Below, piece by piece: positions 37,989 to 51,129 of a stretch of DNA of 64,000 nt (position 1 is its first letter; each line of letters opens with the position of its first letter). The notes beneath the pieces were generated by a model, which saw only the letters and a list, made by a program, of their open reading frames with translations, did not search any database and had not been told where the DNA came from. The translations under genes and the position numbers were made by a program. This stretch comes from an uncultured Spirochaetota bacterium (GTDB lineage: Bacteria > Spirochaetota > Spirochaetia > JAFGXN01). The stretch covers positions 144,363-208,362 of the forward strand of contig CALXOJ010000001.1 of the NCBI GenBank assembly GCA_944390005.1, in the 5' to 3' direction.

Positions 37989-38018
37989 TTGACAACGAGT
38001 TCGGCAATCGGTTATAAT
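37989..38018 (+). promoter_or_regulatory. near-consensus sigma70 promoter abutting the sialidase start codon
   Basis: TTGACA (about 37989-94), 18-nt spacer, TATAAT (about 38013-18), then 6 nt to the ATG at 38025. Confidence 0.55.
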
Positions 38019-38024
38019 ATTCGC

Positions 38025-39692
38025 ATGAGAAAGATCAGCCTTGTGAGAAAAGTCGTTCTTATGACGACCCTTTTACCATTATTAATGTGCTCTGCGTCGT
38101 TTATGACGGAATTTGACCTGGTCTATGCCGGTGATACTTCAGGATCGGGATATTTTAGGATCCCTTCATTACTGACGCTGCGCAATTCCGACGGCTCTTT
38201 GACCGATACCGTTATTGCCGTTCAAGATGTTCGTTTTTCCGGTTTTGGGGATTCTCCCGCCAATATTGATTCCGGAATCCGTATCTCACACGATGCCGGA
38301 AGAACCTTTGATGAGCACCGCCTGCTTTCTCCGTATGCTTTCCGTGATGTAGCGGACGGCGAACGGCATAAATCCGATTCGGCTTCTTTCATTGACTGCT
38401 CGCTGTTTCAGAATTACGAAACGGGCCGCCTTTTTGTCACTGTCAACATGTTCCCGTGGGGCGGCGGTATCATGGGAGGAAATGTTGAAGCGGGTACGCC
38501 GTTTGTCGAAAAAGACGGCGAAACAGTCATGCTGTTGACAGCGACTACAGCAGCGGTTGACTTAATTGAAAGCGGAAAAGTTCCGGATTCCGAAAAAATT
38601 TGGAATTCTGCGCCGTCTTTGTCCGACGTCAGACAACTCGGAACATATTACGCGAAAAAAATCTCCGAATACCCTGTTTATCAAACCGACGCTTCGGGAG
38701 CGATTCGGTTCGATGAAAACGGGTACGCTTTGCTGAAGGAACCGTTCAAACGGGAAATTTACGATGAAAACGGCCGTTATACTAAATTCTTTTTAAACGA
38801 ACGGTATGAAGTGTGTTACGACGACGGAACCGACCGAGGAATCATTTTGAAAGTGGAGCAAATCGGCGGTGATGAAACCGTTCCGATGAACGCCGCGTTT
38901 AAATATTCGATTTTTCAAATGTTCCGTACTTCGTACAACTTCTTGATTTACAGCGATGACAAAGGGCAAACGTGGTCGGACCCGATCAATTTGACCGGTA
39001 TGATTCAAAAACCGACGGAAAACGTCACATACCAAATCGCATCGCCGGGAACCGGTCTTTATGTTGACCGCGGTCCTTACAAAGGAAGGGTGATGTTTGC
39101 CTGTTACACGAACGCTTCTCCCGACGGAACGGTGAAGGCGGAAGTGCCGGTTGCGGTTTGGTCGGATGATAACGGAAAGACGTGGACGCGCGGCGAGACG
39201 CTGACTGATTTGGGCGATACCGTCAAGATGTCGGAATCGGTTCTGACGGTGATGCCGGACGGGAACATCCGCATTTTTTCACGAACGGGATCGAGCCGGG
39301 TCGGTACGGCGCTCTCCCTTGACGGCGGAAAGACGTGGCAGACAGCTCAAAAAATCACAAAAATTTACAACTCCGGATCTTCCGGCTGTCAGATCACGGT
39401 ATTCAATTATCCCGATAAAATCGACGGCTGTGATGCGCTGATTTTGGCTTCGCCTCAATCGCTCGTTGCGCGAAGAAATGGAACGGTGTGGGTTGGATTA
39501 ATTCGCGACGATTCAGGAAACGAAATTGACTGGACTCCGACAAAGGTTCACGACGGCGCTTATGCGTACTCTTGCGCAGCTCCCTTGGCCATTTATTCCG
39601 AAAGAGGATTCCCCGCGGTCGGTCTCTATGCTGAATTGGAAGGCAACAGAATGCATTATGGGATTTTATCGTTTGATGATTTGCACCATTAA
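38025..39692 (+). CDS. exo-alpha-sialidase (BNR/Asp-box, GH33-like)
   Basis: FRIP motif (YFRIPSLLTL) plus four Asp-boxes: SHDAGRTF, SDDKGQTW, SDDNGKTW and SLDGGKTW. Signal peptide present. Confidence 0.8.
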   Translation: MRKISLVRKVVLMTTLLPLLMCSASFMTEFDLVYAGDTSGSGYFRIPSLLTLRNSDGSLTDTVIAVQDVRFSGFGDSPANIDSGIRISHDAGRTFDEHRLLSPYAFRDVADGERHKSDSASFIDCSLFQNYETGRLFVTVNMFPWGGGIMGGNVEAGTPFVEKDGETVMLLTATTAAVDLIESGKVPDSEKIWNSAPSLSDVRQLGTYYAKKISEYPVYQTDASGAIRFDENGYALLKEPFKREIYDENGRYTKFFLNERYEVCYDDGTDRGIILKVEQIGGDETVPMNAAFKYSIFQMFRTSYNFLIYSDDKGQTWSDPINLTGMIQKPTENVTYQIASPGTGLYVDRGPYKGRVMFACYTNASPDGTVKAEVPVAVWSDDNGKTWTRGETLTDLGDTVKMSESVLTVMPDGNIRIFSRTGSSRVGTALSLDGGKTWQTAQKITKIYNSGSSGCQITVFNYPDKIDGCDALILASPQSLVARRNGTVWVGLIRDDSGNEIDWTPTKVHDGAYAYSCAAPLAIYSERGFPAVGLYAELEGNRMHYGILSFDDLHH

Positions 39693-42524: not shown

Positions 42525-43598
42525 TTATTGCGAATCTCCGATCCGAACCGTCTGATCAAGAGGAAAATCGTTTTTCGCGGTTTCCGGGAAAACAGGGTAG
42601 CCGGTTTTCGAACCGTCGGGAAGCACTCCCTCTTCGTGAGTCGGAACCGAACTGTCGGCTTTGAGAAAATAGTCGTAGCGGCAGGTCGGGCTGTTCCACA
42701 CAAGGGAATCGTCATGGGTGGGATCGACCAGATACCAATCACCGTCGATACAGACCTTATTCCAGGCATGTGAGCCTTTCGTATCGGGATCGCCCGGAGT
42801 CGAGAGTGCGGTTCCGGGCACCGTGATGGCGGGAATGCCGCAGCGCATCAGCAGATATTGAAACGAAACGGCATAACCCTGACAAACCACATAACGGATT
42901 TCGGCTTCGGGGGCGGTCAGCGGGTTCAAAAAGGCTCCCCTCAGATTGCCGTCACCGCGGGAATTGGTGGTGCCGTATGTTACTGTCGCCAGAAAAGCAT
43001 CGTGGAGGGCTCTGACCTTCTGTGCCGTCGTCATATTCCCGTTGACGGTATTCAGAATCGGCAGAATGTGCGTTTCCATTTCGGCGGTTTGCGGTTTGTG
43101 GAACGTTTCCCAAAAAGTTCCGAGAGCCATTCCTTTGAAAGCATTGTCAAACCAAGCCTCGTCGGCAATAGCGGTTCCCGAAGGATCGTAAGTGTCGCCG
43201 ATATTGTCCGAACGGCGCGGCAGGACACTCGAGGTCAGCAGAGCCATGCGCGGGTCGTCTTTGGAGAGAAAATCGAAAATTTTAACGATCTGAGCCTCCG
43301 TCAGAGAGAAGCCGTTTTCTTTCAATCTGACTGTGATGTGTGTGGCTGATTTCTGTTCATCGGTGACCGGTTCGGTCAGAAATGCTTTGAGAATAAAATC
43401 GTAAGCCTGCTTTTCTTCTTGGTTCAAAAGCGAACGGCCGTAGTAGAGTTCGACGGGTAAGAATCCTGTCAGAGGATCGAATGGTTCCGAAGGTTTCGTC
43501 TGATTTTCTTCGGATGTACTGCCGTCGGCTACCGGCGGCGGGCAGGCCGTGAGACCCGAAAATAATACCATTAGAAAAATCAGAATTCTGTTTTTCAT
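42525..43598 (-). CDS. transglutaminase-like cysteine-protease-fold lipoprotein
   Basis: Lipobox LTAC. Cys...His...Asp triad candidates (VVCQGYAVSFQYL ... SHAWNKV ... DPTHDD). AGGAG ribosome-binding site 9 nt before the ATG at 43598. Confidence 0.65.
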   Translation of the reverse strand: MKNRILIFLMVLFSGLTACPPPVADGSTSEENQTKPSEPFDPLTGFLPVELYYGRSLLNQEEKQAYDFILKAFLTEPVTDEQKSATHITVRLKENGFSLTEAQIVKIFDFLSKDDPRMALLTSSVLPRRSDNIGDTYDPSGTAIADEAWFDNAFKGMALGTFWETFHKPQTAEMETHILPILNTVNGNMTTAQKVRALHDAFLATVTYGTTNSRGDGNLRGAFLNPLTAPEAEIRYVVCQGYAVSFQYLLMRCGIPAITVPGTALSTPGDPDTKGSHAWNKVCIDGDWYLVDPTHDDSLVWNSPTCRYDYFLKADSSVPTHEEGVLPDGSKTGYPVFPETAKNDFPLDQTVRIGDSQ

Positions 43599-43683
43599 AC
43601 GGATTCGCTCCTGACGGTTGTTATTTTTTTTCATTTTCTGTATACTGAAATTATTATATTACAAGTAAATAGGAAAAGTAAAG

Positions 43684-44304: not shown

Positions 44305-44709
44305 TTACGTCTCGCTGTCAACCGGCGTGATTTCGATTTCAAACTCTTCCGCAGCCTTCAGCGGAATCTGCGGAATCGAATGCCCCGGGGAGACGGTCGA
44401 CCGGGGACAACGCCGTTCTTTGAGATAGCGGTAGAGAGCGCGGGTATCGGAGACCGTTTTCCCTTTCAGAATGAAACAGCCCGAAGCAAATCCCGGTTCG
44501 GAAAAATAGAAAACACGCCCGCCGCCGCTGCCGAAGCGGGTCATAACAATCGAATCGGCTTCGAAGTTGGCGGTATCGCAAAATCCGGTTTCTCCTTTGA
44601 GGCCGATATACGGGAAACGTCCCGTACTTCTTTTCCGTTTCGGACTCCACGGACAAACCGAGATGTCGGCCAAATCTTTCAGTTTTAACATTCCGTTTTT
44701 CTGTTTCAT
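44305..44709 (-). CDS. orphan type I restriction-modification specificity subunit (HsdS) target-recognition-domain fragment; likely a gene remnant
   Basis: 134 aa. LKDLADIS...GRFPYIG...ADSIVMTRFGSGGGRVFYFSEPGFASGCFILKGK resembles one HsdS target-recognition domain. No hsdM or hsdR nearby. Confidence 0.4.
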   Translation of the reverse strand: MKQKNGMLKLKDLADISVCPWSPKRKRSTGRFPYIGLKGETGFCDTANFEADSIVMTRFGSGGGRVFYFSEPGFASGCFILKGKTVSDTRALYRYLKERRCPRSTVSPGHSIPQIPLKAAEEFEIEITPVDSET

Positions 44710-44938: not shown

Positions 44939-44958
44939 AAACAACGGAAGGAGTTTTT

Positions 44959-46056
44959 ATGCAACTGTTTTTTAAAGGAATCGTTTTATTGGCGGCCATG
45001 ATCTTTGTCTCCTGTCCCGGGAAACCGGCGGCGGTATCGGGCTTGACAATCGACCGCACGGAACTGAATTTGAAGCTGGGGCAGGAACAGACGGTGAATG
45101 CGTCGGTTCTTCCGGGGGAGGCTGGCGAAAAGGGAATCCGCTGGTCGAGCGATGCCCCGCAAACCGTTTCCGTAGCGGGCGGCCGCATTCGCGGGGTTTT
45201 GCCGGGGACGGCGACTGTGACGGCCGAGACCGTTGACGGCGGTTTTCGGCAGCAGTGCCGGGTGACGGTGGCCGATGAGGTTTACATTCCCGATCCGCTT
45301 TTCCGCTCCTATCTGTTTTCGCTTTTCGGCGAAAATTCGGAAACGGGAGAGAAACAGATCGATCTCGATGCGGACGGCATTATCACATTAAAAGAGGCGG
45401 AAACGGTTACGGTGATTCACTGCTACAAACTGTCAAACACACCTTCGGAAGAAAAGATTGCCGATTTGACCGGTCTCGAATATTTTGTCAATCTGGAAGA
45501 ATTGGCGTGTCACTACAATAAAATCGAATCTCTCGATTTGCGGTCGCTTTCGAAACTGCGTCGTCTTTACTGCTTTGATAATCGTTTAAGAGAGCTCGAT
45601 CTTTCCGGAAATCCGCTGCTGACGGAGGTCTCCTGCGGAGGCAATACGCTGAAACAGTTGAGTCTCGAAGCAAACCCGTTTCTTGTTACGGTTGATGCCG
45701 GGGAATGCCGCCTCGAAGAGCTGGATCTGACCGGTTTGCCGGAATTGGAATATCTGGTCTGTTCGCAAAATCGTCTGCGCTCGCTCGATGTTTCCCGTAA
45801 TCCGAAGCTGATTCATTTAAGCTGCTACAATAATTACATGGATCGGCTCGATGCCCGAAATTGTCCGAATCTCGATTTTCTCTGGTGCGGACAGCAGATC
45901 AACGAAGCGGAAGGAATGTACAATTTGAAACTTTCTCTTTATCTGCCCCAATCGTTGTGGGACAGATGGGAGAGTGACGAAACGTGGGGAAAGCCGGGTT
46001 CGGACGGATATCCTGCCGAAACGGCCAACACCTGGGTGACCCTTATTAAAGAATGA
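44959..46056 (+). CDS. surface lipoprotein: Big_2 Ig-like domain + EF-hand-like loop + ~9 leucine-rich repeats + conserved W-rich C-terminus
   Basis: Lipobox FVSC. Big_2 unit (GLTIDRTELNL...CRVTV), DLDADGIITLKEAE loop, and 22-residue LRRs (LxxLxCxxNxLxxLDLSxNPxL). Confidence 0.75.
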   Translation: MQLFFKGIVLLAAMIFVSCPGKPAAVSGLTIDRTELNLKLGQEQTVNASVLPGEAGEKGIRWSSDAPQTVSVAGGRIRGVLPGTATVTAETVDGGFRQQCRVTVADEVYIPDPLFRSYLFSLFGENSETGEKQIDLDADGIITLKEAETVTVIHCYKLSNTPSEEKIADLTGLEYFVNLEELACHYNKIESLDLRSLSKLRRLYCFDNRLRELDLSGNPLLTEVSCGGNTLKQLSLEANPFLVTVDAGECRLEELDLTGLPELEYLVCSQNRLRSLDVSRNPKLIHLSCYNNYMDRLDARNCPNLDFLWCGQQINEAEGMYNLKLSLYLPQSLWDRWESDETWGKPGSDGYPAETANTWVTLIKE

Positions 46057-46087
46057 AAACCATCGAATCGTATTGAGGAGGAGTTTT

Positions 46088-48448
46088 ATGAAAATGTTTG
46101 TTCGCTGTTGGGGAATGGTTTTGCTGCTCGCTTTGGCAAGCTGTGAAAAGGATTCGGCAAAAGTGTCCGGAATAACGGTAACGCCTGCATCGGTGACACT
46201 GGAGGCGGGGAAGACGGTTTCGCTGAAAGCCGCTGTTGTGCCCGAAACGGCAGCCGATAAAACTGTCCGGTGGGAATCGGAAAATCCGGCTGTTGCCGAC
46301 GTCACCGCTTCCGGAGTCGTGACGGCCAAAGCCGCCGGCGAGACGTCCGTGACAGCTGTCACGACCGACGGAAATTACCGGGCTTCCTGTCTGATAACCG
46401 TTATCGGCAAAACGGACGTTACGGGAGTCCGAATCGACGAGACGTTTCCGGTTCCGGTGGGAAAAGAAGTCGGTTTAAATTATGCGGTTCTGCCGACCGA
46501 TGCCTCCGTGAAAACGGTTTTGTTTACGGTCGAAGAGGGGAAAGAAGATGTCCTGACGCTTGAAGATTCCAATCGCGGTATCGTGAAAGGGGTTGCTGTC
46601 GGTGCGGCACAGGTGACGGTGACCACCGCGGAAGGCGGGTACAGCGACAGTTGTGCCGTGACGGTTTACCGGGCAGCGGAAAAGGTGACGATAACGGCCG
46701 ACGGTTACGAGGCTGCCGCCGGGTTGGAGGCCGGGCTGACGCTTGCGCTGACGGCGACCGTTTCCGGAGAGCCGACTTACGGCACCGTTTTCTGGGCAAC
46801 GTCCGACCCGCAAACCGCCGCTGTCGCTGCGGACGGCACGGTCACGGCCAAAGCACCGGGCACCGTTACCGTGCGGGCTTCGCTGCACCCGTTCGACAAC
46901 CCCGATTACCCTGCCGATGTCACGGCGGAGATCAAAATCGACATTGTCGCGGGCAGTGCCGCTGTCGAATCGGTTGCAATTAACGAAGGCGAAACCGTTA
47001 CGATGTTCAAGGGAGAGACAAAGCAGCTGACCTGTACGGTCAATCCCCCGAATGCCTCAGAGAAAACAGTGGTTTGGAGTGTCACAGAGGGGGCCGATGT
47101 CGTTTCCGTCAATGCCGATACGGGAGAAGTGACGGCGCTCCGTCCGGGAAGTGCGACCGTAACGGTTACCTCGCGATCCGATGCTGCCAAATCGGACAGC
47201 TGTACCGTTACGGTTCGGGAGGCTGTCACCGCCGTCCGGTTGGACCGCGACAGTCTGCGGCTGACGCTGACCGAAGACGGCAAAACGGAAACCCTGACCG
47301 CTGCGGTCGAACCGGAAGAAGCGACTGACCGCAGCGTTCGGTGGACAGCCGATCCCGACGGGATTGTCTCTGTTGAGAATGGGACAGTGACCGCACTGAA
47401 CGCCGGAACGGCAACCGTTCGCGCCGAATCGGTTTCCAATCCGGGAGTTTACGATGAATGCGAAGTGACGGTGATTTCTCCCGTCACGCAGATTACGCTG
47501 AATCATTCAGTTTACCCCGCAGCTCCGGGAACATTCGAAGTCGGCCTCGATTTCGTTTTGAGTGCGGCGGTGACGCCCGGCGACGCGACAGACAAACGGC
47601 TGACTTGGAGTGTTTCACCCGAAAACATTGTTTCATTGGATGACGCAACCGGAACCGTAACCGCGTTAGAAGCCGGAACCGCTACCGTTACGGTGACCGC
47701 CGCCGACGGCTTCGGGGCATCGGCCTCGTGTGTTATCACCGTCTCTCCGGCAACGGCAGCCGTCACAAAAATTGTTTTGAATCGGGAGAGTGTGAACCTT
47801 TATAAAGGAAAAAGTTACCGTCTGACAGCATCCGTCGAACCGCCCAACGCCGCTGTTAAAACCGTCACATGGAGTCTCGAAGGAGGCGATGGGGCGGCAA
47901 CGATTTCGGACGACGGTCGTCTGAGTGTCAATTCAAATGCCGGCGCGGCCATGTTTACGGTGAAAGCGACCGCCGGAGACGCTTCCGGAGTGACAGCAAC
48001 CTGCGCGGTCACGGTTCGTACGGAACTGATTCCCGCAGGAGCGCTGTTCGATGCCGTTGCCGCCGCGACCGGCAAACAGAACTTCACGGAATCCGACCTG
48101 GAAAACGTCTCCGAACTGGAGGTTGTCGCGGCATCTGGAACAACAGCTCTGTACGGTCTGGAGCTGATGCCGAATCTGCTCTCGCTTGACTGCAGCGGCG
48201 GATTTTTGACCGATCTGGATACTTCGATGAATCTGGAACTCGAAACGCTGATTTGCAACGGCAATTATTTGGAAAAGCTCGATTTGCGTTCGAATTCGGC
48301 ATTGAAGAATCTGCTCTGCGGAAATCAGATTGGTCAGATTGGATTAAAAAAAGTCCCTCTTTATCTGCCTTCTTCTTTATGGGAGAGGTGGGATAATGAA
48401 TGGAGTCGGAACGGTTCCAATAACAACGTCACTCTTGTCAGAGAATAA
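46088..48448 (+). CDS. surface lipoprotein paralog: seven tandem Big_2 domains + LRRs + conserved C-terminus
   Basis: Lipobox LASC. Seven units of about 85 aa each ending ...C.VTV; C-terminal LYLPSSLWERW motif. GAGGAGG ribosome-binding site. Confidence 0.75.
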   Translation: MKMFVRCWGMVLLLALASCEKDSAKVSGITVTPASVTLEAGKTVSLKAAVVPETAADKTVRWESENPAVADVTASGVVTAKAAGETSVTAVTTDGNYRASCLITVIGKTDVTGVRIDETFPVPVGKEVGLNYAVLPTDASVKTVLFTVEEGKEDVLTLEDSNRGIVKGVAVGAAQVTVTTAEGGYSDSCAVTVYRAAEKVTITADGYEAAAGLEAGLTLALTATVSGEPTYGTVFWATSDPQTAAVAADGTVTAKAPGTVTVRASLHPFDNPDYPADVTAEIKIDIVAGSAAVESVAINEGETVTMFKGETKQLTCTVNPPNASEKTVVWSVTEGADVVSVNADTGEVTALRPGSATVTVTSRSDAAKSDSCTVTVREAVTAVRLDRDSLRLTLTEDGKTETLTAAVEPEEATDRSVRWTADPDGIVSVENGTVTALNAGTATVRAESVSNPGVYDECEVTVISPVTQITLNHSVYPAAPGTFEVGLDFVLSAAVTPGDATDKRLTWSVSPENIVSLDDATGTVTALEAGTATVTVTAADGFGASASCVITVSPATAAVTKIVLNRESVNLYKGKSYRLTASVEPPNAAVKTVTWSLEGGDGAATISDDGRLSVNSNAGAAMFTVKATAGDASGVTATCAVTVRTELIPAGALFDAVAAATGKQNFTESDLENVSELEVVAASGTTALYGLELMPNLLSLDCSGGFLTDLDTSMNLELETLICNGNYLEKLDLRSNSALKNLLCGNQIGQIGLKKVPLYLPSSLWERWDNEWSRNGSNNNVTLVRE

Positions 48449-48467
48449 TATAGGAAAGGAGCGAAAA

Positions 48468-49586
48468 ATGAAAAAGATCTTCAGTTGTATTGCTGCTGTA
48501 TGGATGTTGGCTTCCTGCGATCCGGTAACGGATCCGGTGAAGGCAACCGGTATCGAGATCCGACCTTCGTCGGTGACTTTGGAAATCGGAAAAACGGAAG
48601 AACTGACGTTTGCGGTTTTGCCGGAGCAGGCGGTTCAGAAAGTTCTTTGGGAAAGTTCGAATGAAAAAATCGTTACGGTGAAAGAAGGAAAAGTGACGGC
48701 AATAGCTGCCGGGAAAGCCGAAGTGAAAGCGGTCGTTGCCGAAAATAAAAGTCTGACGGCTGTCTGTACGGTGACCGTTACCGCGCCGGAACCGGAAGAA
48801 AAACCCGTAACGGGACTGACGCCGACTCCGGCAGTCGATCAGCCGGTTTCTCTTACCGTCGGCGGAACGCAGACATTTAGTGTCGCCGTCGTTCCGGAGG
48901 ATGCCTCAAACCCTGCCGTGAACTGGAGCGTCGATAACGAAGCCGTCATCACGCTGAGTGCCTCAACCGGAATGTCCGTAACGGTGACCGCCGCCTCTGC
49001 CGGTACCGCTGTCGTCACCGCCGTCTCGGCCGACAACGGTGAGGTTTCCGTTTCGTGGACGGTGACCGTCACCGAGCCGGTACCGGAGAGCCTGAATCTG
49101 GAGACAGATGTTCCCGATGTGGCATTCCGTGACGTGCTGAAAAAATTTGATACGGACAATGACGGAATCGTGTCCCGGGCGGAAGCGGATGCGGTTACGG
49201 AACTCATTTGTGAAGACTGGAATGATACTATAATCGATTTAACCGGCATTGCTTTCTTCACAAATCTTGAAACACTCTCCGTTCAGGGGGAACGTCTCGA
49301 ATCTGTCGATTTGAGCGGAAATCGGAAATTGAAACACATTGACCTTCGTTATAATGCAATCAGGAAACTTGATTTAACGGCTCTGGATCAGTTGCAGGAA
49401 TATAAAACCAATACCGCAGGGACGGTTGTTTACGGTTTACAGATCGGCCATCAGGGTGAGTCTGACGGAGATGAAATTTCCGTTATTCTTTCAGATGTGT
49501 ATAAGGATGTCTGGGATCGGACATGGAGTCAGCCGATCTCCGAATACAGTACACCGAATAAGGGCGTGATCGCTACCTTTCGTTAA
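48468..49586 (+). CDS. surface lipoprotein paralog: two Big_2 domains + EF-hand/dockerin-like loop + LRRs
   Basis: Lipobox LASC. DTDNDGIVSRAEAD loop. AAAGGAG ribosome-binding site. Confidence 0.75.
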   Translation: MKKIFSCIAAVWMLASCDPVTDPVKATGIEIRPSSVTLEIGKTEELTFAVLPEQAVQKVLWESSNEKIVTVKEGKVTAIAAGKAEVKAVVAENKSLTAVCTVTVTAPEPEEKPVTGLTPTPAVDQPVSLTVGGTQTFSVAVVPEDASNPAVNWSVDNEAVITLSASTGMSVTVTAASAGTAVVTAVSADNGEVSVSWTVTVTEPVPESLNLETDVPDVAFRDVLKKFDTDNDGIVSRAEADAVTELICEDWNDTIIDLTGIAFFTNLETLSVQGERLESVDLSGNRKLKHIDLRYNAIRKLDLTALDQLQEYKTNTAGTVVYGLQIGHQGESDGDEISVILSDVYKDVWDRTWSQPISEYSTPNKGVIATFR

Positions 49587-49596
49587 ATCTTATTGT

Positions 49597-49640
49597 GCGG
49601 GAGAGATGTCTTCTTTGGGAAGAAATCTCTCCGTTTAAAG
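49597..49640 (+). terminator. terminator-like hairpin after the BIG2-LRR array
   Basis: GGAGAGATgTCTTC-tttggg-aAGAAaATCTCTCC followed by a weak U-tract (GTTTAAA). Confidence 0.4.
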
Positions 49641-49662
49641 GCAAAACAATCGGGCGGAGGGG

Positions 49663-51129
49663 GTGATGAACATCCGGAAAACGATTTTTTTGGCGATTGC
49701 CGCGGTGATGCTGCAGGCGGCTGTCGGTTGCGAAGAAAAAAAGAGTGAAGCGGGACGGCTTTATACGCTGACGGCCGCCGTTCCGCAAGAAGAGGGGAAC
49801 TTTATCGACAGCGATCACCGTTTTACGCTGACGGCCGCCCTTGCTCCCGGCCGCGAGGCGGCGGCCGGCGCACAGCCGCGGCCGTCGACGGCGCTGCCGG
49901 TCCGGTCGGCGTCGGAAAATCGGGAAACCGCAGCGGTTCACTCGTTTTATTCCCGGATGAGGGAGACCGAAGAGCGGCTGGCGGCCGCATCGGCATCGGG
50001 CCGAGCGGCGGGCGCATCCCGGTTTCGGATTGCGGACGGCAGATCCGGAGTCCGTTCCGTTACGGAAGGCAGCAGCCGCTACGGGTTTCGGGTTCTCGAC
50101 GGCAACGGAGTGTCCCACTCGGTTGATGCCGTTTGCCGCCGGGTTTCCCGGTACGCTGCCGTTTATGTCGATACCGCGGTGACGGTCGACAGCGCCGCGC
50201 TGGAGGTCGTTACCGCGGAATTCGATCGGATGGTGCCGGAAATGCATCGGCTTTTTTCTCATGAAAGCGATATCGACGGGAACGGTACCGTTCTTTTTCT
50301 GCTGACCCCGCTGGAACCGGGACTCTACGGTTATTTTTACGCTCAGGATAAATATCCCGACGGAACCGGCGGCGAGTTTTCGAACGAAGCCGATCTTCTT
50401 TATGTGAATTCCGACTGTTTTGCCGATTTCGAAACACATCGGGACGATTTGATTGCCACGTTTATTCATGAATTTCAGCATATGATTTTGTTCGATCACC
50501 GAACCCGGCTCGGGAAACCGCAGCTGCCGGTCTGGCTGAACGAGGGACTCTCCATGCTCTCCGAATATTACGCCGGATATGCGCTGCCGCACGGTCGTTA
50601 TCTGGAAGCGTTATTTGAGAATCAGGGCATTTCTCTGATCGAGAATCACCCTTTCCCGTTGCCCAATTACGGTTATTCTCTTCTCTTTCTCCGGTATCTT
50701 CGGGAGCGGTGGGGAGACAATGTTGTCCGCCGCATTTATGATTCCTCATTTTCGGGAGTGGCGGTCGTTTCCGATGCAACCGGCGTCGAATTTAATACGC
50801 TTTTTTCCGATTTTACAACCATGATTGCCGTCACCGGACGGGGTATCGAACAGGATGAACGTTACGAGATAGCCGCTTTCGGTCATGAACCGGGCAGTGA
50901 GGCGTATCGGAAAAACGGATTCCACTTGGCGCGGCTGATTGATGATCTGTATCGCCGGAAACGGGGTTCCGGCTGGCCTTTATCGGTCGATTTGACGAAA
51001 AAATCCGGAATTCGGGAAGAAAATATGTTGTCTTACTCGTTTTATCTTCACGAGTGGCTTAACGGAACGGTTTCTTCGTTCGGATTCGAATCGGACGGAA
51101 CGGTGCTGTTTCGCGAAGTCCGCTATTAA
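49663..51129 (+). CDS. lipoprotein zinc metallopeptidase (HExxH + downstream Glu; gluzincin-like, possibly M30/hyicolysin-like)
   Basis: Lipobox AVGC. Disordered Ala/Arg/Ser-rich linker, then FIHEFQHMILFDH...WLNEGLS. Confidence 0.6.
   Translation: MMNIRKTIFLAIAAVMLQAAVGCEEKKSEAGRLYTLTAAVPQEEGNFIDSDHRFTLTAALAPGREAAAGAQPRPSTALPVRSASENRETAAVHSFYSRMRETEERLAAASASGRAAGASRFRIADGRSGVRSVTEGSSRYGFRVLDGNGVSHSVDAVCRRVSRYAAVYVDTAVTVDSAALEVVTAEFDRMVPEMHRLFSHESDIDGNGTVLFLLTPLEPGLYGYFYAQDKYPDGTGGEFSNEADLLYVNSDCFADFETHRDDLIATFIHEFQHMILFDHRTRLGKPQLPVWLNEGLSMLSEYYAGYALPHGRYLEALFENQGISLIENHPFPLPNYGYSLLFLRYLRERWGDNVVRRIYDSSFSGVAVVSDATGVEFNTLFSDFTTMIAVTGRGIEQDERYEIAAFGHEPGSEAYRKNGFHLARLIDDLYRRKRGSGWPLSVDLTKKSGIREENMLSYSFYLHEWLNGTVSSFGFESDGTVLFREVRY

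What the first reader, a model, noticed from the sequence alone, without database searches (positions are those of the whole stretch)
44959..49586. Tandem array of three paralogous lipoproteins built from Big_2 Ig-like domains (1, 7 and 2 copies), EF-hand/dockerin-like Ca-loops and 22-residue LRRs with a shared Trp-rich C-terminus
All three have lipoboxes and are separated by 12-32 nt with their own ribosome-binding sites. They share a C-terminal LYLPxSLWxRW...W module of unknown function. Two carry DxDxDGxxxxxE loops (DLDADGIITLKEAE, DTDNDGIVSRAEAD) immediately before the LRR solenoid. Varying the number of Ig-like spacer domains changes how far the LRR head projects from the membrane, which looks like an adhesin length-variation strategy. 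Internal 255-bp Big_2 repeats in the middle gene could also allow recombinational expansion or contraction. This is a candidate host-interaction or antigen-variation locus.
Basis: partly seen in the sequence, partly recalled or inferred. Interest (0 to 1): 0.65.

Follow-up and report, generated by a model that had tools for sequence, protein, structure and literature searches.

The report
Variable-length Big_2–LRR lipoprotein adhesin array
Three neighbouring genes of an uncultured spirochaete encode lipid-anchored proteins with an Ig-like stalk and an internalin-like leucine-rich-repeat head, and among strains the third gene gains and loses stalk domains and swaps its head, which looks like a known type of surface variation.

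Summary
Three co-oriented paralogous lipobox genes lie at 44959-46056, 46088-48448 and 48468-49586. They carry 1, 7 and 2 Big_2 domains, each followed by an internalin/InlJ-like LRR head.

Corrections:
- The LRR period is 21 residues, not 22.
- The "EF-hand loop" is the calcium-type loop of the LRR N-terminal cap and is conserved across the family.
- The Trp-rich C-terminus is a widespread LRR C-terminal cap, found in 83 protein clusters.

Its Big_2 units share only 30-54% nucleotide identity, and 92 strain alleles are all 779-790 aa long, with no whole-domain gain or loss. The mechanism is right for the third gene. There one 96-97-residue Big_2 unit occurs in 0, 1, 2 or 3 tandem copies among same-species alleles. 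The copies are 93-98% identical in DNA, and the deletion crossover sits in a direct repeat present in the window.

The third gene's LRR head also exists as two old allelic types (54% identity, dS 0.75 against about 0.04-0.15 in flanking genes). Both types are found on stalks of every length.

No silent cassettes or invertible promoter were found. This is best read as a fibrillar-adhesin / Periscope-protein-like locus. Surface exposure and the ligand are untested.

The parts
44946..44953 (+). Ribosome-binding site GGAAGGAG of gene 1
   Evidence: Read directly from the sequence.
44959..46056 (+). Gene 1 (365 aa): lipobox Cys19, one Big_2 domain, an EF-hand-type N-cap, seven 21-residue Cys-ladder LRRs and a Trp-rich C-cap.
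   Evidence: ORF. Pfam Big_2 and LRR_4. Best solved match is InlJ 3bz5, E=2.8e-41. AF2 model pLDDT 88.6. Foldseek top hit is InlJ, followed by other internalins. The architecture is invariant in 17 alleles.
45031..45273 (+). Gene 1 Big_2 domain (residues 25-105).
   Evidence: Pfam PF02368 covers residues 25-100, E=8e-8, above the cutoff.
45361..45396 (+). Gene 1 EF-hand loop DLDADGIITLKE (residues 135-146) inside the LRR N-terminal cap (residues 106-170).
   Evidence: Motif found. The family consensus is PDxxFxxxxxxxxxDxxxDGxxxxxE. This cap segment has dS 0.645 with dN/dS 0.08 among strains.
45469..45909 (+). Gene 1 LRR solenoid: seven repeats of 21 residues (residues 171-317), consensus LDLSxNxxLxxLxCxxNxLxx.
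   Evidence: Repeat register and period test. One strand every 21 residues in the AF2 model.
45889..46053 (+). Gene 1 C-terminal cap module (residues 311-365): CGQQ...LKLSLYLPQSLWDRWESDETW...TWVTLIKE.
   Evidence: Alignment A2. The profile finds 83 clusters. AF2 models it as strand then helix, at lower confidence in gene 1.
46076..46084 (+). Ribosome-binding site GAGGAGGAG of gene 2.
   Evidence: Read directly from the sequence.
46088..48448 (+). Gene 2 (786 aa from ATG 46088): lipobox Cys19, seven diverged Big_2 domains, and a short LRR head with no EF loop.
   Evidence: Pfam finds Big_2 in 7 stretches, E=1.3e-69. The 92 alleles are 779-790 aa.
46163..48019 (+). Gene 2 stalk: Big_2 units 1-7 (residues 26-644). 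The units share 15-42% amino-acid and 30-50% nucleotide identity.
   Evidence: No tandem or direct DNA repeats. Unit 6 (about 47600-47750) is a diversity peak, pi 0.20, and carries an 8-aa indel in some strains.
48020..48445 (+). Gene 2 head (residues 645-786): a degenerate N-cap without a Ca loop, three 21-residue LRRs (689-751) and the Trp-rich C-cap LYLPSSLWERWDNEW...VTLVRE.
   Evidence: pi is 0.15-0.17.
48452..48460 (+). Ribosome-binding site GGAAAGGAG of gene 3.
   Evidence: Read directly from the sequence.
48468..49586 (+). Gene 3 (372 aa from ATG 48468): lipobox Cys17, Big_2 unit A, Big_2 unit B, and an internalin-like head of allelic type A.
48540..48767 (+). Gene 3 Big_2 unit A (residues 25-100). 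It is constant in all alleles.
48768..49058 (+). Gene 3 Big_2 unit B with its Pro-rich linker (residues 101-197, 291 nt). This is the copy-number-variable unit: 0, 1, 2 or 3 copies among strain alleles, and one copy here.
   Evidence: Tandem Repeats Finder reports a 288-nt period x3.1 at 95-96% matches in L090 and L091.
48765..48796 (+). Left copy of the 32-nt direct repeat (88% identical to the right copy, 291 nt apart) that brackets unit B. It encodes C/W-TVTVT-xPxPE.
   Evidence: Family D13. The deletion junction of the 0-copy allele L087 falls in the shared ACGGTGACCGT core.
49056..49087 (+). Right copy of the 32-nt direct repeat bracketing unit B.
49149..49184 (+). Gene 3 EF-hand loop DTDNDGIVSRAE (residues 228-239) in the N-cap. 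In the AF2 model it is flanked by helices at 218-227 and 237-242.
   Evidence: Pfam EF-hand_1/5/6 E=0.006-0.01, below the cutoff.
49077..49583 (+). Gene 3 head (residues 204-372): N-cap, three LRRs (259-321) and C-cap (ISVILSDVYKDVWDRTW...GVIATFR). This segment is dimorphic among strains.
   Evidence: Type A and type B heads are 54% identical. pi is 0.18-0.34 against a background of 0.01-0.02. dN is 0.305 and dS 0.751.
49600..49632 (+). Stable hairpin directly after gene 3, a possible terminator or attenuator ahead of the next lipoprotein gene.
   Evidence: Minimum free energy -24.8 kcal/mol for 49587-49662, z = -2.84. It has no strong T-tract, and the consensus terminator scan did not exceed chance.

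Best explanation
The locus is an operon-like array of three paralogous lipoproteins in an uncultured Spirochaetia bacterium. Each protein has an N-terminal lipid anchor. A stalk of Big_2 Ig-like domains follows (1, 7 and 2 in this strain). The stalk carries a C-terminal internalin-type head. The head consists of a cap holding a canonical EF-hand loop (absent from gene 2), 21-residue Cys-ladder LRRs of the InlJ kind, and a short Trp-rich strand-helix-strand cap.

The most likely role is a set of fibrillar-adhesin-like binding proteins that present LRR heads at different distances from the membrane. The three genes evolve differently.
- Gene 1 is conserved.
- Gene 2 has a fixed seven-domain stalk of diverged units with scattered substitutions.
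- Gene 3 behaves like a Periscope Protein. Its second Big_2 unit is lost or duplicated by unequal recombination between the direct repeats at the unit boundaries. Once duplicated, recombination can act between 288-nt copies that are 93-98% identical. The result is stalks of 1 to 4 Ig domains in the population.

Independently, the LRR head of gene 3 is exchanged between two long-diverged allelic types by homologous recombination in the conserved flanks.

Shown: gene order, domain content, fold similarity, copy-number classes, the deletion junction and the diversity profile. Inferred: lipidation, surface exposure, co-transcription, Ca2+ binding, an adhesive function, and selection as the cause of the polymorphism.
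For: Architecture:
- Pfam Big_2 x1/x7/x2 plus LRR.
- The AF2 models are confident (pLDDT 88.6 and 91.1). They show helix-loop-helix around the DxDxDG loop and strand-helix-strand at the C-terminus.
- The family consensus keeps the DxxxDGxxxxxE cap.
- The internalin cap is described as a truncated EF-hand, and the domain after the LRR as a C-terminal cap (PMC3986869).
- The C-cap profile hits 83 clusters, always directly after an LRR.

Same-species strain loci:
- The same three genes sit between the same neighbours in L001, L002, L084, L085, L087, L089, L090 and L091.
- Flanking DNA is about 98% identical.

Gene 3 length classes among 76 cluster representatives:
- 275-281 aa: 7 clusters.
- 365-383 aa: about 60 clusters.
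- 470-500 aa: 5 clusters.
- 565-569 aa: 2 clusters.
- Each class occurs with both head types.

Gene 3 repeat evidence:
- The tandem repeat is 288 nt x3.1 at 95-96% matches on contigs of 19 kb (L091) and 257 kb (L090), with no N's.
- Copies show positional correspondence between two samples: B1-B1 97.6%, B2-B2 96.9%, B3-B3 96.2%.
- The 0-copy allele was assembled by two pipelines (L087 from ENA, L088 from Logan). Its junction lies in the window's 32-nt direct repeat.

Diversity:
- The pi peaks are confined to the heads and to one stalk unit.
- Gene 3 head dS is 0.75, against 0.04-0.15 in MDH and ABC-F.
- Housekeeping proteins fall in one 90% cluster each, gene 2 in at least 92 and gene 3 in at least 76.

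Concept: Periscope Proteins and fibrillar adhesins, including InlJ-like LRR adhesive domains and Big_2 stalks (PMC8201768; PMC9704523; PMC9210967).
Against: - No experiment or predictor shows that these lipoproteins are lipidated or reach the cell surface. Spirochaetal lipoproteins can also be periplasmic.
- The window's own gene 3 allele has only one unit B, so the strain sequenced here has no repeat array.
- All 2- and 3-copy alleles come from short-read metagenome assemblies in ENA, several of them with ERZ162680xx-162682xx accessions. Exact copy numbers could be wrong.
- The strain loci used for pi and dN/dS were chosen for divergent alleles. The values therefore overstate typical diversity.
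- dN/dS in the heads is below 1 (0.41). Positive selection is not shown.
- The pN/pS of about 2.1 among unit-B copies is pooled over non-independent pairs and was not tested for significance.
- Promoter and terminator scans are at chance level, so co-transcription rests on spacing alone.
- No ligand is known.
Confidence: 0.65

Rival explanations
1. The locus is static. The gene 3 length classes are artefacts of assembling short reads from mixed strains through similar sequence, and the array is simply three fixed paralogues.
For: All 2x and 3x alleles come from ENA only. One allele, P0279, has an odd B-B junction and a 24-aa duplication on a 4-kb contig, which looks like a misassembly. Logan contigs tend to break in this region: L086 ends 102 nt into gene 3.
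Against: - The 0-copy form appears in 7 clusters and in both ENA and Logan assemblies. Its junction is clean, in frame, and lies in a direct repeat.
- The copies in 3x alleles differ at 4-6% of positions, so they are resolvable.
- They keep the same positional markers in two independent samples.
- The contigs reach 257 kb and contain no N's.
Confidence: 0.1
2. The proteins are subsurface (periplasmic) lipoproteins that bind endogenous envelope components. On this reading the polymorphism reflects relaxed constraint and hitch-hiking, not interaction with a host or partner.
For: - Surface exposure is untested.
- dN/dS stays below 1 in every head segment.
- The neighbouring lipoprotein genes (transglutaminase-like, HExxH) are also more variable than the housekeeping genes.
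Against: - The diversity is sharply localised to the heads and to one stalk unit. It is not spread over the genes.
- The two gene 3 head types are old (dS 0.75) and are kept on all stalk lengths. Relaxed constraint does not predict this.
- The closest solved relatives are Listeria internalins. Stalk-plus-LRR is a recognised fibrillar-adhesin layout (PMC9210967).
Confidence: 0.15
3. A programmed antigenic-variation system: within one cell line, heads or stalk units are replaced from silent donor cassettes, or expression is switched by an invertible element.
For: The mosaic pattern has sharp breakpoints around the gene 3 head. The stalk-length and head-type combinations suggest frequent exchange.
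Against: - tblastn with the alternative head and with unit B finds no silent copy in the 64-kb window. It finds only the three expressed genes.
- There are no strong inverted repeats around the upstream region.
- No recombinase gene is adjacent.
- One allele is identical on 23 contigs read, at least some from different samples, which argues for stable inheritance.
Confidence: 0.05
4. One reading: the seven Big_2 units of the middle gene are the substrate for recombinational expansion and contraction.
For: The seven domains are arranged head to tail.
Against: - The units share 30-50% nucleotide identity.
- No exact word longer than 15 nt is shared by any two of the ten Big_2 units in the three genes.
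- No DNA repeat is detected.
- The 92 alleles span only 779-790 aa, and the length differences come from indels of a few residues.
Confidence: 0.03

Closest known systems
Listeria internalins, especially InlJ (PDB 3bz5)
   Same: The head is an N-terminal helical cap of EF-hand type followed by a right-handed LRR solenoid. As in InlJ, the repeats are 21 residues long with a conserved Cys. InlJ is the best match by sequence and by fold.
   Different: - There is no Ig-like inter-repeat domain after the LRR. A 45-55-residue Trp-rich strand-helix-strand cap takes its place.
- The cap keeps a full canonical DxDxDGxIxxxE loop.
- The anchor is an N-terminal lipobox, not LPXTG or GW, so the head is C-terminal and the Ig domains precede it.
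- The organism is a spirochaete, not a firmicute.
Periscope Proteins (SasG, Rib, Sgo_0707; inverse autotransporters among Gram-negatives)
   Same: Gene 3 shares three features with the class (PMC8201768; PMC9704523). It has a stalk of tandem folded domains with Pro-rich linkers. The repeats are nearly identical in DNA. Their number differs between closely related strains, which changes how far a distal binding domain projects.
   Different: - The anchor is a lipid. The 2022 review does not mention lipoproteins (0 occurrences).
- The range seen is small (0-3 copies).
- The window's allele has one copy.
- Variation is documented only from metagenome assemblies.
- Head swapping is an extra layer.
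Fibrillar adhesins (stalk domain plus adhesive domain)
   Same: Big_2 is used as a stalk domain, and an InlJ-like LRR is reported as a very prevalent adhesive domain (PMC9210967).
   Different: That survey was built on Firmicutes and Actinobacteria with cell-wall anchors. Here three paralogues with stalks of different length sit in tandem.
Leptospira LigA/LigB (own knowledge; fold hit 8gyr)
   Different: In Lig proteins the Ig domains themselves bind ligands and there is no LRR head. Domain number there is not known to vary in this way.
TpLRR / BspA / LrrA-type LRR proteins of Treponema and Tannerella (own knowledge)
   Same: LRR surface proteins of host-associated spirochaetes and partner organisms. 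BspA also combines LRR with Big_2.
   Different: Those LRRs are 23 residues long (Pfam LRR_5). Here the period is 21 and the Pfam match is LRR_4. The domain order in BspA is the reverse.

Membership tests
Big_2 (Pfam PF02368) domain proteins | A match to the Pfam model above the gathering score. | tested here: met
Bacterial lipoproteins | A signal peptide with a positively charged n-region, a hydrophobic core and a lipobox ending in Cys. | tested here: inconclusive
   By eye the pattern is present in all three: MQLFFKGIVLLAAMIFVSC, MKMFVRCWGMVLLLALASC and MKKIFSCIAAVWMLASC. No lipoprotein predictor was available and lipidation was not tested. The gene 1 lipobox (FVSC) is non-canonical.
Internalin family | An N-terminal helical cap fused to an LRR solenoid of 21-22-residue repeats. 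| tested here: met
Internalin family | An Ig-like inter-repeat (IR) domain directly C-terminal to the LRR. | tested here: not met
   Only 45-55 residues follow the last LRR. AF2 models them as strand, helix, strand. The phmmer alignment to the start of the InlJ post-LRR region is partial.
Internalin family | An LPXTG or GW cell-wall anchor at the C-terminus. | tested here: not met
   The proteins end in ...TLIKE...TLVRE and ...ATFR. The anchor signal is an N-terminal lipobox.
Periscope Proteins | Tandem, highly identical repeats of a folded domain that form the stalk. | tested here: met
   Met in strain alleles L090 and L091: 288-nt period x3.1 at 95-96% matches, with copies 94-98% identical. 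Not met in the window's own allele (one unit B) or in genes 1 and 2.
Periscope Proteins | Repeat number differs between closely related strains. | tested here: met
   0, 1, 2 or 3 copies of unit B among same-species alleles whose flanks are about 98% identical. The data come from short-read assemblies only.
Periscope Proteins | [quoted passage not shown] | not testable with these tools
   The order lipobox, stalk, head fits this layout. Localisation needs experiments.
EF-hand | A 12-residue loop with ligands at positions 1, 3, 5 and 12 and Gly at 6, flanked by helices. | tested here: met
   DLDADGIITLKE and DTDNDGIVSRAE. The gene 3 model has helices on both sides of the loop. Pfam EF-hand scores are below the cutoff (16 bits against 25). 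Ca2+ binding was not tested.
TpLRR/BspA-type LRR (Pfam LRR_5) | 23-residue repeats that match LRR_5. | tested here: not met
   The period is 21. Pfam reports LRR_4, LRR_8 and LRR_1 but not LRR_5.

The most novel reading that the evidence does not exclude
A lipid-anchored, C-terminal-head version of the Periscope or fibrillar-adhesin principle in Spirochaetia. One operon offers three reaches (short, long and adjustable). In the adjustable member, stalk length (1-4 Ig domains) and head identity (two ancient LRR alleles) recombine independently. That would make it a combinatorial surface-variation system maintained by balancing selection in a host-associated community.
Probability: 0.3. Interest if true: 0.6.

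Novelty: new member of a known kind. Interest (0 to 1): 0.45.

Why it matters
Variable-length surface proteins are well described in Gram-positive pathogens and in inverse autotransporters. They are little described in spirochaetes or for lipoproteins. This locus gives a concrete and abundant natural example, with about 160 distinct gene 3 sequences in public data, where stalk length and binding-head identity vary separately. That makes it testable whether reach and specificity are selected independently.

The work also annotates two recurrent features of a very large, poorly annotated LRR family. One is an N-cap that retains a full EF-hand loop. The other is a Trp-rich C-cap. Most of the locus, however, is ordinary domain architecture of known kinds.

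Tried and rejected
1. DNA repeats in the middle gene. Tandem Repeats Finder, the repeat finder and codon-threaded unit alignments found none.

2. Organism and synteny from species-representative genomes. I used the neighbouring ABC-F protein as the query.
- The best hit was a Spirochaetia MAG.
- None of these loci carries the array or its neighbours.
- The only organism label came from an RF-1 cluster member named 'Spirochaetia bacterium'.

3. Cluster look-ups for gene 1 and gene 2 alleles gave no names.

4. A paper search for the run and sample accessions gave nothing useful.

5. A paper search for Treponema, LRR, Big_2 and lipoprotein together found no description of this family.

6. Rfam on the whole window gave no matches.

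7. Promoter and terminator scans were at chance level.

8. Silent cassettes and an invertible promoter were looked for and not found.

10. The first dN/dS run for unit A and unit B was contaminated by the extra copies in expanded alleles (codon counts 202 and 193). I redid unit B on the extracted copies. That ratio, about 2.1, is suggestive only.
Full report
**Anatomy**

The region holds three same-strand ORFs. Reading the DNA puts the starts at ATG 44959, ATG 46088 and ATG 48468. The ORF list had started the last two upstream, at TTG 46073 and ATG 48396. Each start lies 5-8 nt after a GGAGG-type site. The spacers are 31 and 19 nt.

All three N-termini have a charged start, a hydrophobic core and a Cys in a lipobox-like context, at positions 19, 19 and 17. 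Pfam finds Big_2 in 1, 7 and 2 stretches, all above the cutoff. It also finds LRR_4/LRR_8 matches. Only LRR_4 in gene 1 exceeds its cutoff; the matches in genes 2 and 3 are weak.

BLASTP shows that the three proteins are paralogues over both stalk and head, with E=3e-23 and 6e-24.

**The head**

The LRR period is 21 residues, not 22. In gene 1, self-identity is 0.31 at offset 21 and 0.04 at offset 22. Seven repeats of the form LDLSxNxxLxxLxCxxNxLxx line up in register. Genes 2 and 3 have three repeats each.

The best solved relative is Listeria InlJ, the 21-residue 'cysteine ladder' internalin:
- phmmer E=2.8e-41.
- Foldseek rank 1 for the gene 1 model.

Both AlphaFold models are confident, with pLDDT 88.6 and 91.1.

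Gene 1 has DLDADGIITLKE and gene 3 has DTDNDGIVSRAE, both fitting DxDxDGx[ILV]xxxE. Gene 2 has none. In the gene 3 model the loop sits between two helices.

The loop belongs to the N-terminal cap of the LRR. An alignment of 56 family members gives the consensus PDxxFxxxxxxxxxDxxxDGxxxxxExxxVTxLxxxxxxIxxLxGIExFxNL. The internalin cap is itself described as a truncated EF-hand (PMC3986869). The loop is therefore a family feature and most likely structural. Calcium binding is inferred, not shown.

**The Trp-rich C-terminus**

The three C-termini align with invariant G, Q, W, W, N and V. I searched a profile of this module against 1.84 billion representative proteins. It found 83 clusters at E<=1e-3.

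In the hits inspected, the module follows an LRR directly. It has the form CGxQ....LxLxLTxxQxxxWxxxWxxxxxNxNVxL. It sits at the protein's end, before a short tail, or before the cap of a further LRR block.

AF2 models it as strand, helix, strand, with high confidence in gene 3. I read it as the C-terminal cap of this LRR subfamily. It takes the place that the Ig-like inter-repeat domain has in internalins. This is inference from position and predicted structure.

**Organism and relatives**

The window matches metagenome contigs from many samples. The same three genes lie between the same neighbours: an HsdS fragment upstream, and an HExxH lipoprotein and ABC-F downstream. This holds in L001, L002, L084, L085, L087, L089, L090 and L091. 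Flanking DNA is about 98% identical, so these are strains of one species.

The only label I obtained is 'Spirochaetia bacterium', from a member of the RF-1 90% cluster. ABC-F is 70% identical to a Spirochaetia MAG and 65% to Treponema.

Outside the species, the nearest proteins are 30-39% identical. Many have the same layout of lipobox, Big_2 xN, EF cap, LRR and cap. One of them is a solitary gene in another genome from the same study.

**Is stalk length variable?**

*Middle gene: no.* Its seven units share 15-42% amino-acid and 30-50% nucleotide identity. No exact word longer than 15 nt is shared by any two of the ten Big_2 units in the three genes. No DNA repeat is detected. All 92 near-full-length alleles are 779-790 aa. 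The length differences come from indels of a few residues.

*Gene 1: no.* It is also invariant in architecture.

*Gene 3: yes.* Its alleles fall into length classes:
- 275-281 aa.
- 365-383 aa.
- 470-500 aa.
- 565-569 aa.

The classes correspond to 0, 1, 2 and 3 copies of one unit, TVTVTxPxPExxPVTGLTPTPAV...VSVSW. This unit is 96-97 residues: Big_2 unit B plus a Pro-rich linker. Unit A is constant.

By cluster representatives the counts are 7, about 60, 5 and 2. By distinct member sequences they are roughly 16, 127, 14 and 3.

The DNA of two 3-copy alleles shows a 288-nt tandem repeat x3.1 at 95-96% matches. It lies on contigs of 19 kb (L091) and 257 kb (L090) that contain no N's. Copies are 93-98% identical. 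They keep positional correspondence between the two samples.

The 0-copy allele was assembled by two pipelines. Its junction lies in the 11-nt identical core of a 32-nt, 88% direct repeat. In the window this repeat brackets unit B, at 48765-48796 and 49056-49087.

The window strain carries the one-copy state.

**Diversity**

Across seven strain loci, pi is 0.01-0.02 in the flanks. It rises at these places:
- Gene 3 head (49100-49700): 0.18-0.34.
- Gene 2 unit 6: 0.20.
- Gene 2 head: 0.15-0.17.
- Gene 1 cap: 0.10.

The gene 3 head exists as two types that are 54% identical. Both occur on every stalk length. Its dS is 0.75, against 0.04-0.15 for MDH and ABC-F, and its dN/dS is 0.41. These are therefore old allelic lineages exchanged by recombination. 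They are not merely fast evolution.

The gene 1 cap segment likewise has dS 0.645 with dN/dS 0.08. Gene 2 stalk dN/dS is 0.56, against 0.01-0.02 for housekeeping genes.

Housekeeping proteins fall into one 90% cluster each. Gene 2 falls into at least 92 clusters and gene 3 into at least 76.

Caveats:
- The strain loci were picked for divergent alleles.
- The pooled pN/pS of about 2.1 among unit-B copies was not tested for significance.

**What it is not**

I found no silent cassettes for the alternative head or for unit B in the window. There are no strong inverted repeats upstream. One allele is identical on 23 contigs read. Programmed antigenic variation is therefore unsupported.

**Comparison with what is known**

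The layout matches fibrillar adhesins, which combine a stalk domain with an adhesive domain. Big_2 is a recognised stalk domain. InlJ-like LRRs are reported as a very prevalent adhesive domain (PMC9210967).

Gene 3 meets the sequence-level criteria of Periscope Proteins: tandem, near-identical folded repeats whose number differs between close strains (PMC8201768). The N-anchor and C-terminal effector topology is known from inverse autotransporters. Lipoprotein anchors are not mentioned in the 2022 review.

The locus is not an internalin in the strict sense. It has no IR domain and no LPXTG or GW anchor.

**Verdict**

This is a real, coherent and ordinary-in-kind surface-protein locus.

Noticed in passing
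window 44305-44709 (-): An orphan 134-aa fragment of a Type I restriction-modification specificity subunit (Pfam Methylase_S, E=5e-7) lies directly upstream of the array. No methylase or restriction gene is nearby. The fragment is conserved at this position in all strain loci.
   Followed up: partly
window 49663-51129 (+): The next gene also encodes a lipobox protein (…LQAAVGC). It has an HEFQH motif and a sub-threshold match to the MXAN_6640 putative HExxH metalloprotease family (E=4e-9). It starts 76 nt after gene 3, behind a stable hairpin at 49600-49632. It may belong to the same surface-protein cluster.
   Followed up: partly
window 42525-43634 (-): A transglutaminase-core lipoprotein gene has a hypervariable N-terminal part (pi 0.09-0.15). 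Its gene calls are truncated or split in several strains: 240 aa in L001, 240+73 in L089, 184+199 in L090, against 357-369 aa elsewhere. This could be pseudogenisation or frameshift switching.
   Followed up: no
window about 47640-47660; L091 6162-6206: Gene 2 unit 6 carries an in-frame 8-residue insertion (TAPATGTV or TATATGTV) in some strains. In L091 it coincides with a hexanucleotide tract, (CGCAAC)x7.5. This is a small-scale length polymorphism inside an otherwise fixed stalk.
   Followed up: partly
protein P0279 (gene 3 allele, 4-kb ENA contig): This allele has a 24-residue duplication inside the LRR (LKRINLEFNFIKSLDLSNQIHLIE twice) and an irregular junction between unit-B copies. It is either LRR-number variation or a misassembly.
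   Followed up: no
window 37989-39692 (+): A BNR/sialidase-like gene lies about 5 kb upstream. Its called length varies among strains (524-567 aa). Together with the lipoproteins it suggests a host-glycan-facing neighbourhood.
   Followed up: no
proteins P0383, P0402, P0405, P0411, P0396, P0401: Several distant proteins that carry the same LRR C-cap end in short Gly-rich tails such as ...GSDFTIEGIY...NGGVF or ...GGEF. These may be an uncharacterised C-terminal sorting signal.
   Followed up: no
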